The notes beneath the pieces were generated by a model. The model was not told where the DNA came from and made no database searches. It saw only the letters and a list, made by a program, of their open reading frames with translations. Position numbers and translations under genes: made by a program. From the human T2T-CHM13v2.0 reference genome, Homo sapiens, in assembly GCF_009914755.1 (NCBI RefSeq), contig NC_060941.1: DNA of 64,000 nt. One strand, written 5' to 3'. Of this stretch, positions 49,118 to 57,020 are shown in pieces (position 1 is the first letter of the stretch; each line of letters begins with the position of its first letter).

Positions 49118-57020
<7,903 letters not shown>

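What the first reader, a model, noticed from the sequence alone, without database searches (positions are those of the whole stretch)
50966..50994. 27-nt decoy copy of the exon-4 splice acceptor in intron 3 with an immediate stop
Seen: tgtcctgttaattagagatgatccact (50966-50992) versus the true acceptor tgtcccgttaattagagatgatccgct (52327-52353), 25/27 identical. Both differences are CpG-decay type (CG>TG, CG>CA). Splicing exon 3 to the decoy AG (50980/50981; 137-nt intron) reads K-M-I-H-TAG (50992-50994), truncating before TM2. Inference: either a poison acceptor coupling expression to NMD, or the scar of a duplication/insertion across the intron-exon boundary that expanded intron 3. The first 9 exonic nt are identical, so short-overhang junction reads would be misassigned.
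Basis: partly seen in the sequence, partly recalled or inferred. Interest (0 to 1): 0.75.

Follow-up and report, generated by a model that had tools for sequence, protein, structure and literature searches.

The report
Copied splice-acceptor patch in CACNG5 intron
A 27-base copy of the intron 3/exon 4 boundary of the human CACNG5 gene really sits 1.36 kb upstream in the same intron, but it looks like an old, decaying DNA-repair scar and not a working splice site.

Summary
50966-50992 matches 52327-52353 at 25 of 27 bases, same strand. It is far beyond chance: 0 of 100 shuffles gave two hits, and these are the only two copies in the 3.1-Gb genome. Both differences are CpG-to-TpG/CpA, and splicing there would read K-M-I-H-stop.

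The homology ends sharply at both edges. The source is the real acceptor, because the paralog CACNG7 shares the same exon boundary.

The copy carried only the last 15 intron bases. That core is weak (rough matrix: 1.56 bits true, 1.98 copy; 1135 of 4239 AGs score as well or better). The true site's branch-point motif at -28 and upstream pyrimidine run were not copied. No usable donor follows within 420 nt, and intron 3 has no poly(A) hexamer.

Two of 2 CpGs lost and 0 of 23 other bases changed fits neutral decay, about 56 My old (support 9-209).

Best reading: a short templated-insertion scar, spliced at noise level at most. The poison-acceptor idea is neither supported nor excluded. Low interest. 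Primate/mammal alignments and long-overhang junction reads would settle it.

The parts
50966..50992 (+). The 27-nt copy ('decoy'). It holds 15 intron-derived bases ending in AG (50979/50980) and 12 exon-4-derived bases (50981-50992).
   Evidence: (family D6), 5 and 6: 25/27 identity to 52327-52353, sharply bounded, and one of only two copies in the genome.
52327..52353 (+). The source: the last 15 nt of intron 3 plus the first 12 nt of CACNG5 exon 4. The annotated acceptor AG is 52340/52341.
   Evidence: and the hub annotation (exon 52342-52482). CACNG7 appears to have the same exon boundary and phase, read from its sequence, not from annotation.
50992..50994 (+). In-frame TAG that would end translation after K-M-I-H if the copy's AG were used.
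   Evidence: translation. The T is the last copied base and the AG is flank.
52305..52326 (+). Context of the true acceptor that was NOT copied: the CTGAC branch-point motif (A at 52313, 28 nt from the AG) and a pyrimidine run.
   Evidence: Two of the five CpGs of intron 3 (52319, 52332) lie in its last 23 nt.
50952..50965 (+). Possible second patch, directly abutting the copy. It is the reverse complement of exon 3 bases 50803-50816 (13/14, 12 exact). This is a lead only.
   Evidence: Background: 132 of 7407 random 14-mers (1.8%) have such a hit within 1.5 kb, and 14 of 609 control alignments reach the same score.
50844..52341 (+). CACNG5 intron 3 (1498 nt), host of the copy. Its CpG observed/expected ratio is 0.055.
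   Evidence: Hub annotation.
51138..51864 (+). Old dispersed repeat inside intron 3, between the two 27-mers but not bounded by them. The family was not identified.
   Evidence: the 39 long other-locus matches are 68-75% identical (two short fragments 71% and 79%), all within query 146-872, out of 1566 first-look candidates; alignment with 8 fetched copies.

Best explanation
The 27-mer is the scar of a short, non-tandem patch duplication. During repair of a break or a stalled fork in intron 3, a 3' end briefly copied about 27 nt from the intron 3/exon 4 boundary 1.36 kb downstream. This is a templated insertion of the MMBIR or polymerase-theta end-joining kind. A 14-nt patch copied in reverse from exon 3 may have preceded it.

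The copy then drifted neutrally and lost both of its CpGs. It carries an AG and an in-frame stop. It did not inherit the branch point, the upstream pyrimidine run or the downstream donor that make the true exon 4 recognisable. So it is expected to be ignored by the spliceosome, or used only at the noise level of any intronic AG.

Shown: the copy, its sharp bounds, its uniqueness, the source direction and its weak splice context. Inferred: the repair mechanism, the neutrality, the age and the lack of use.
For: 1. Real and unique.

2. Sharp bounds. Identity on the same diagonal falls to random level immediately outside the 27 nt, and gapped local alignment extends nothing. That fits a patch, not a decayed larger duplication.

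3. Direction true site to copy. The exonic 12 nt are ancient coding sequence: the match on contig 19, which I take to be the paralog CACNG7, encodes the homologous exon at 76% identity with what looks like the same boundary. Both differences are CpG losses in the copy. The branch motif CTGAC at -28 and the pyrimidine run lie upstream of the downstream copy only.

4. Neutral decay suffices. Intron 3 has a CpG observed/expected ratio of 0.055, with 0 CpG in the 227 nt around the copy. With recalled primate rates, 2 of 2 CpGs lost and 0 of 23 other sites changed is most likely at about 56 My (support 9-209 My), and the chance of no non-CpG change at that age is about 0.4.

5. Poor splice context, by a rough matrix recalled from memory. 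The copy scores 1.98 bits and the true site 1.56, against 4.7-11.6 for the other four CACNG5 acceptors. 1135 of 4239 AGs in the gene score as well as the copy or better, and at least 15 unused AGs in intron 3 score 4.8-8.0. Pyrimidines at -20..-3 are 12/18 against 14/18. No GT within 420 nt downstream scores above 3 bits, while the real donors score 6.7-12.7. Intron 3 has no AATAAA or ATTAAA.

6. The mechanism is established in the human germline. Passages of PMC8421209 report 103 and 99 germline templated insertions of 25 bp or more in two people, mostly with junction microhomology, and complex events that copy first in reverse and then forward.
Against: No outgroup or insertion-free allele could be examined. 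So the event, its age and its junction microhomology are all inferred.

The template lies 1361 nt away, farther than the 100-bp search radius of the study cited.

A 137-nt intron is short enough for recognition across the intron, and the exon 3 donor is a good one (TAA|gtaagt, 7.4 bits). The copy's AG is the first AG more than 12 nt downstream of the partial branch motifs at 50948 and 50954. Some use therefore cannot be excluded.

The true acceptor works with the same weak core, so this core can be spliced in a helpful context.

My splice matrices and substitution rates are recalled approximations, not MaxEntScan or SpliceAI.

The exon-3 inverted patch is only marginally beyond chance (about 2%, found post hoc).
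Confidence: 0.72

Rival explanations
1. Regulated poison acceptor. The upstream AG is used in some cells, removing a 137-nt intron. The in-frame TAG then sends the transcript to nonsense-mediated decay, which tunes CACNG5 output.
For: The AG, frame and stop are as described. The stop would lie far upstream of later junctions. The hypothetical intron is short and follows a good donor. The same core works at the true site.
Against: There is no complete branch motif and the pyrimidine tract is weaker than at the true site. No downstream donor exists, so the exon would have to be 1502 nt long. At least 15 better-scoring AGs in the same intron are not annotated as used. The substitution pattern needs no selection. 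In the open library only 1 paper holds both CACNG5 and 'nonsense-mediated', and it is unrelated by its listing. The three papers I opened from the 72 that hold CACNG5 and 'splicing' mention CACNG5 once each, none of them as a splicing event. [quoted passage not shown] (cut off in my view); I take it to mean splicing noise.
Confidence: 0.07
2. Non-productive decoy 3' acceptor. The copy binds 3' splice-site factors without being spliced, and competes for the exon 3 donor. That would favour intron 3 retention or skipping of the in-frame 87-nt exon 3, as proposed for the caspase-2 decoy acceptor and for decoy exons.
For: It sits 137 nt downstream of exon 3 in an intron longer than 1 kb. It carries a bona fide acceptor core. 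PMC6097662 (passages) describes decoy exons and cites a decoy 3' acceptor in caspase-2.
Against: Decoy exons as described there are paired 3' and 5' sites, highly conserved and bound by U2AF. Here no donor follows, the tract is weak, and both CpGs have decayed as expected for neutral sequence. No special RNA structure is predicted (z = 0.72).
Confidence: 0.05
3. Remnant of a larger duplication (for example an old tandem copy of exon 4) or of gene conversion between two older homologous stretches, of which only this island is still recognisable.
For: The direct orientation and same-intron position would fit a tandem event.
Against: Identity is at random level immediately outside the 27 nt on the same diagonal, and no gapped extension is found. 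The translation after the copy has no likeness to exon 4. A 93% island with random flanks would need strong selection on just these bases, yet its two CpGs decayed.
Confidence: 0.08
4. The two 27-mers are target-site duplications of a roughly 1.33-kb insertion at the exon 4 boundary, which expanded a formerly 137-nt intron 3.
For: Direct repeats flank 1334 nt that include a transposon-like repeat.
Against: The dispersed repeat covers only 51138-51864. None of the 41 other-locus matches extends beyond query 146-872, which leaves 146 and 462 nt of unique sequence between it and the 27-mers. No A- or T-run abuts either copy. The consensus branch motif and pyrimidine run lie upstream of the downstream copy, whereas under this model the ancestral ones should sit upstream of the upstream copy.
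Confidence: 0.03

Closest known systems
Germline templated insertions (MMBIR-type 'MMB-TI', or polymerase-theta end-joining insertions)
   Same: A short stretch (25 bp or more) copied from a nearby template into a new site, sharply bounded. Such events accumulate as harmless germline variants, and complex forms copy in reverse and then forward (PMC8421209, passages).
   Different: The template is 1361 nt away, while that study searched only within 100 bp. Junction microhomology cannot be read without the pre-insertion allele. This event is old and apparently fixed in this assembly, not a polymorphism called from reads.
Pseudo or cryptic 3' splice sites and splicing noise
   Same: An intronic AG whose local motif closely resembles an annotated site. 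PMC11772838 (passages) reports that novel splice sites are highly similar to annotated ones and that local signal strength is not enough to guarantee accurate splicing.
   Different: Here the likeness comes from descent (a copy), not from convergence on a consensus, and the site lies 1361 nt from its annotated twin.
Decoy exons and the caspase-2 decoy 3' acceptor
   Same: An acceptor-like element inside an intron longer than 1 kb, downstream of an exon whose donor it could engage (PMC6097662, passages).
   Different: It has no paired donor and a weak pyrimidine tract. No evidence of conservation or U2AF binding is available, and its decay pattern is neutral.
Poison exons and NMD-coupled alternative 3' splice sites
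   Same: Use of the site would give an immediate premature stop upstream of further junctions.
   Different: No expression evidence is available. There is no cassette structure, and the exon would be 1502 nt. No conservation test was possible.

Membership tests
Templated insertion (MMBIR / end-joining type) | Inserted stretch (near-)identical to a nearby template | tested here: met
   25/27 identity to a template 1361 nt downstream, with both differences being CpG decay. These are the only two copies in the genome.
Templated insertion (MMBIR / end-joining type) | Sharp ends with no flanking homology | tested here: met
   Diagonal identity is random outside the 27 nt, and there is no gapped extension.
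Templated insertion (MMBIR / end-joining type) | Microhomology at the junctions | tested here: inconclusive
   The bases directly outside the copy do not match the template flanks. Any microhomology used would lie inside the 27-mer, and it cannot be read without the pre-insertion allele.
Templated insertion (MMBIR / end-joining type) | An allele or outgroup that lacks the insertion | not testable with these tools
   No other mammalian genome or population data are held.
NMD-coupled poison acceptor | Premature stop upstream of later exon junctions | tested here: met
   TAG at 50992-50994, in frame after K-M-I-H.
NMD-coupled poison acceptor | Competent 3' splice site (branch point, pyrimidine tract, AG) | tested here: inconclusive
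   The AG is present. The rough matrix gives 1.98 bits, at the 73rd percentile of all AGs in the gene. Only partial branch motifs are present. However, the true site has the same weak core. The matrix is recalled and is not a validated predictor.
NMD-coupled poison acceptor | Junction reads that rise when NMD is blocked | not testable with these tools
   No RNA data are available. Literature searches found nothing on CACNG5 isoforms of this kind.
Decoy exon (intron-retention type) | Paired 3' and 5' splice sites that define a short cryptic exon | tested here: not met
   No GT with a donor score above 3 bits lies in the 420 nt after the copy, while real donors score 6.7-12.7.
Decoy exon (intron-retention type) | High cross-species conservation and U2AF binding | not testable with these tools
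   No alignments or CLIP data are held. The CpG decay pattern gives no sign of constraint.
Target-site duplication of a mobile element | Repeats directly abut the ends of the inserted element | tested here: not met
   The dispersed repeat spans only 51138-51864, which is 146 and 462 nt from the 27-mers.

The most novel reading that the evidence does not exclude
The copy is a working decoy. It either acts as a low-use poison acceptor or engages the exon 3 donor non-productively (as in caspase-2). Either way a repair scar would have been recruited to set CACNG5 (TARP gamma-5) output or exon 3 inclusion in primate brain. That would be an instance of a splicing regulator born in one step by copying a gene's own acceptor.
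Probability: 0.07. Interest if true: 0.55.

Novelty: new member of a known kind. Interest (0 to 1): 0.2.

Why it matters
As a scar it matters little. It is a clean, datable example of a non-tandem templated patch whose template lies more than 1 kb away, and which happens to have copied a splice boundary.

There are two practical points. First, RNA-seq junction reads with 9 nt or less of overhang cannot distinguish 50843>50981 from the true 50843>52342 junction, so database counts for the 'novel acceptor' may be artefacts. Second, the 18-nt uninterrupted identity between the copies could mediate a rare 1361-bp deletion. Such a deletion would strip the true acceptor of its branch point.

If the copy were functional, it would show that a splicing decoy can arise in a single step from a gene's own acceptor.

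Tried and rejected
Chance was rejected.

A member of a repeat family was rejected: there are only two copies in the genome.

A known structured RNA or snoRNA in or around intron 3 was not found: Rfam gave 0 matches at E up to 1 over 50700-52600.

Special RNA folding at either copy was not found: z = 0.72 and -0.10.

A decayed exon-4 duplicate was rejected.

A target-site duplication was rejected.

A composite terminal exon was rejected, because intron 3 has no AATAAA or ATTAAA.

The paralog has no equivalent: its 3.1-kb locus holds no relative of the 27-mer at up to 9 mismatches.

Further template patches downstream of the copy were not found. There is no exact match of 10 nt or more within 49000-53000 except the exon-3 inverted patch, and the one other 14-mer hit (51044 against 56895) is within chance expectation.

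Literature: three of the 72 papers that hold CACNG5 and 'splicing' were opened, and none concerns a CACNG5 splicing event. A five-term search listed no CACNG5 paper among its top 15. Supplementary tables of splicing atlases were not examined and may hold junction counts for this site.

Full report
**Observation.** The two differences (50971 T against C, 50990 A against G) are each a CpG in the true acceptor and a TpG or CpA in the upstream copy. The copy's AG is 50979/50980. Joining exon 3 (last base 50843) to 50981 would remove 137 nt and read ...VNVLKMIH-stop, with TAG at 50992-50994. The T of that stop is the last copied base and the AG belongs to the flank. The first nine exonic bases of the two sites are identical.

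**Not chance, not a repeat family.**
- A search of the window with up to three mismatches finds only these two sites, and 0 of 100 dinucleotide shuffles give two hits.
- The window's own assembly (3.1 Gb, 24 contigs) holds exactly these two matches to a pattern that allows either base at the two CpG positions plus two more mismatches. The reversed control pattern gives none.
- I enumerated every direct 27-mer pair of at least 25/27 in the window, which gave 182 clusters. Only two lie outside the listed masked stretches and are not low complexity. One is this pair. The other (14967/41287) looks to me, from recall, like the core of a MIR repeat.

**Anatomy.** The homology is sharply bounded. Local alignment under two scoring schemes returns just the 27 nt, and identity along the same diagonal is at random level on both sides. 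So this is a discrete patch and not the best-preserved island of a longer duplication. The translation after the copy has no likeness to exon 4.

**Which copy is the source.** Three lines agree that the true acceptor is the source.
- The exonic 12 nt belong to ancient coding sequence. A search of the genome with the exon 4 peptide finds a match on contig 19 at 76% identity, which I take to be the paralog CACNG7. Its sequence shows an AG after a long pyrimidine tract at the same codon position. That boundary is read from the sequence and not from an annotation.
- Both differences are CpG losses in the upstream copy.
- The true site is preceded by a full branch-point motif (CTGAC, A at 52313, 28 nt from the AG) and a pyrimidine run. 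The upstream copy is preceded only by partial motifs.

Two of the five CpGs in the whole 1498-nt intron lie in its last 23 nt. By my own arithmetic about 0.08 would be expected there. This suggests constraint on the real acceptor region.

**What lies between the copies.** A genome search with 50993-52326 shows that query positions 146-872 (window 51138-51864) belong to an old dispersed repeat. The 39 long other-locus matches are 68-75% identical (two short fragments 71% and 79%), from 1566 first-look candidates. An alignment with eight fetched copies puts its ends near 51140 and 51865. The 146 nt and 462 nt that separate it from the two 27-mers matched nothing else. The 27-mers are therefore not its target-site duplication, and no A- or T-run abuts them.

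**Can the copy act as an acceptor?** I scored sites with position matrices recalled from memory. They are rough, and I use them only for ranking within this gene.
- The core that was copied is weak: 1.56 bits at the true site and 1.98 at the copy, against 4.7-11.6 for the other four CACNG5 acceptors.
- 1135 of the 4239 AGs in the gene score as well as the copy or better.
- At least 15 AGs inside intron 3 score 4.8-8.0 and are not annotated as used.

Exon 4 is presumably recognised through what was not copied: the branch motif, the pyrimidine run at -21 to -16, and a top-scoring donor (CAG|gtaagt, 12.65 bits).

Downstream of the copy no GT within 420 nt scores above 3 bits. Use of the copy would therefore require a 1502-nt exon. 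Intron 3 holds no AATAAA or ATTAAA that could make a terminal exon. Rfam finds nothing, and neither site folds better than shuffles.

Some points favour occasional use. A 137-nt intron is short, the exon 3 donor is decent (7.4 bits), and the copy's AG is the first AG more than 12 nt downstream of the partial branch motifs at 50948 and 50954.

**Decay pattern and age.** Intron 3 is almost stripped of CpG (observed/expected 0.055; 0 CpG in the 227 nt around the copy). Loss of both CpGs is what the local regime does to unconstrained sequence. I used recalled primate rates: about 0.025 per My per CpG dinucleotide and 0.0007 per My per other site. The pattern of 2 of 2 CpGs lost and 0 of 23 other sites changed is then most likely at about 56 My, with support from 9 to 209 My. 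A human-specific age (6.5 My) is about 11 times less likely. At the best age the chance of no non-CpG change is about 0.4, so no purifying selection needs to be invoked.

**A possible second patch.** The 14 bases directly upstream of the copy (50952-50965) are the reverse complement of exon 3 bases 50803-50816 (13/14, 12 exact). This was found post hoc and is only marginal. 132 of 7407 random 14-mers (1.8%) have such a hit within 1.5 kb, and 14 of 609 control alignments reach the same score. If real, the event was a complex templated insertion of about 41 nt, first in reverse from about 150 nt upstream and then forward from 1.36 kb downstream.

**Mechanism and known kinds.**
- Passages of PMC8421209 report about 100 germline templated insertions of 25 bp or more per person (103 and 99 in two individuals). 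Most have junction microhomology, and some are complex events that copy first in reverse and then forward. The authors propose that local events which do not disrupt genes accumulate over evolution. Their template search was limited to 100 bp, so a 1361-nt distance is outside what they measured.
- Passages of PMC6097662 describe decoy exons as conserved, U2AF-bound cryptic exons with both splice sites, and cite a decoy 3' acceptor in caspase-2. The present element fails the paired-donor feature. The other features could not be tested.
- Passages of PMC11772838 state that novel splice sites closely resemble annotated ones and that local signal strength does not guarantee accuracy.

**Literature on this gene.** 72 papers hold CACNG5 and 'splicing'. 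I opened three, and each mentions CACNG5 once, never as a splicing event. Only one paper holds CACNG5 and 'nonsense-mediated', and by its listing it is an unrelated zebrafish study. I found nothing in print on this element. Supplementary junction tables were not examined.

**Verdict.** The most likely reading (0.72) is a neutral, tens-of-millions-of-years-old templated-insertion scar that happens to carry an acceptor core. It is expected to be spliced at most at noise level. A regulated poison acceptor (0.07) or a non-productive decoy (0.05) remains possible, because no RNA data or cross-species alignment could be consulted. Interest is low. The finding is a new instance of a known kind of mutation and of a known kind of pseudo splice site.

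Noticed in passing
window 52320-52344: The true exon 4 acceptor (…ttttgtcccgttaattag|AG) is strikingly weak by a rough matrix: 1.56 bits against 4.7-11.6 for the other four CACNG5 acceptors. The homologous boundary of the paralog I take to be CACNG7 (L004, around 1460-1500) has a long pyrimidine tract. Exon 4 (141 nt, in frame) may depend on its branch motif at -28 and its perfect donor.
   Followed up: partly
window 51138-51864: Old dispersed repeat inside intron 3 that is not in the hub's list of masked stretches. The 39 long genomic matches are 68-75% identical, from 1566 first-look candidates. The family was not identified, and some other copies seem to continue past its 3' end.
   Followed up: partly
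window 50952-50965 and 50803-50816: The 14 nt abutting the copy are the reverse complement of part of exon 3 (13/14). A direct ATGCCC also occurs at a similar offset in both places (50940 and 50795). This may be a multi-template insertion, but it is only about 2% beyond chance and was seen post hoc.
   Followed up: yes
window 50844-52341: Intron 3 is extremely poor in CpG (5 in 1498 nt, observed/expected 0.055, the lowest of the five introns). Two of the five CpGs lie in the last 23 nt, at the true acceptor.
   Followed up: partly
window 52562-52818 and 55634-55895: Two masked repeats in inverted orientation about 3 kb apart (Alu-like, from recall). Both lie inside intron 4, with arms of up to 74 nt at 80-90% complementarity, so they could form long double-stranded RNA in the pre-mRNA.
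   Followed up: no
window 54494-54566 and 54695-54897: A GGAT-type simple repeat faces a TCCA-type repeat array about 150-300 nt away in intron 4. The arms are complementary at 71-86%.
   Followed up: no
window 14967-14993 and 41287-41313: This is the only other unmasked direct 27-mer pair of at least 25/27 in the window. From recall it resembles a MIR repeat core, so it is probably two short unmasked MIR fragments in intron 1.
   Followed up: no
window 51009: An AG 29 nt downstream of the copy (…cttaattttccag|TAGTGA) scores 6.31 bits, well above the copy itself. It begins with an in-frame-independent TAG.
   Followed up: no
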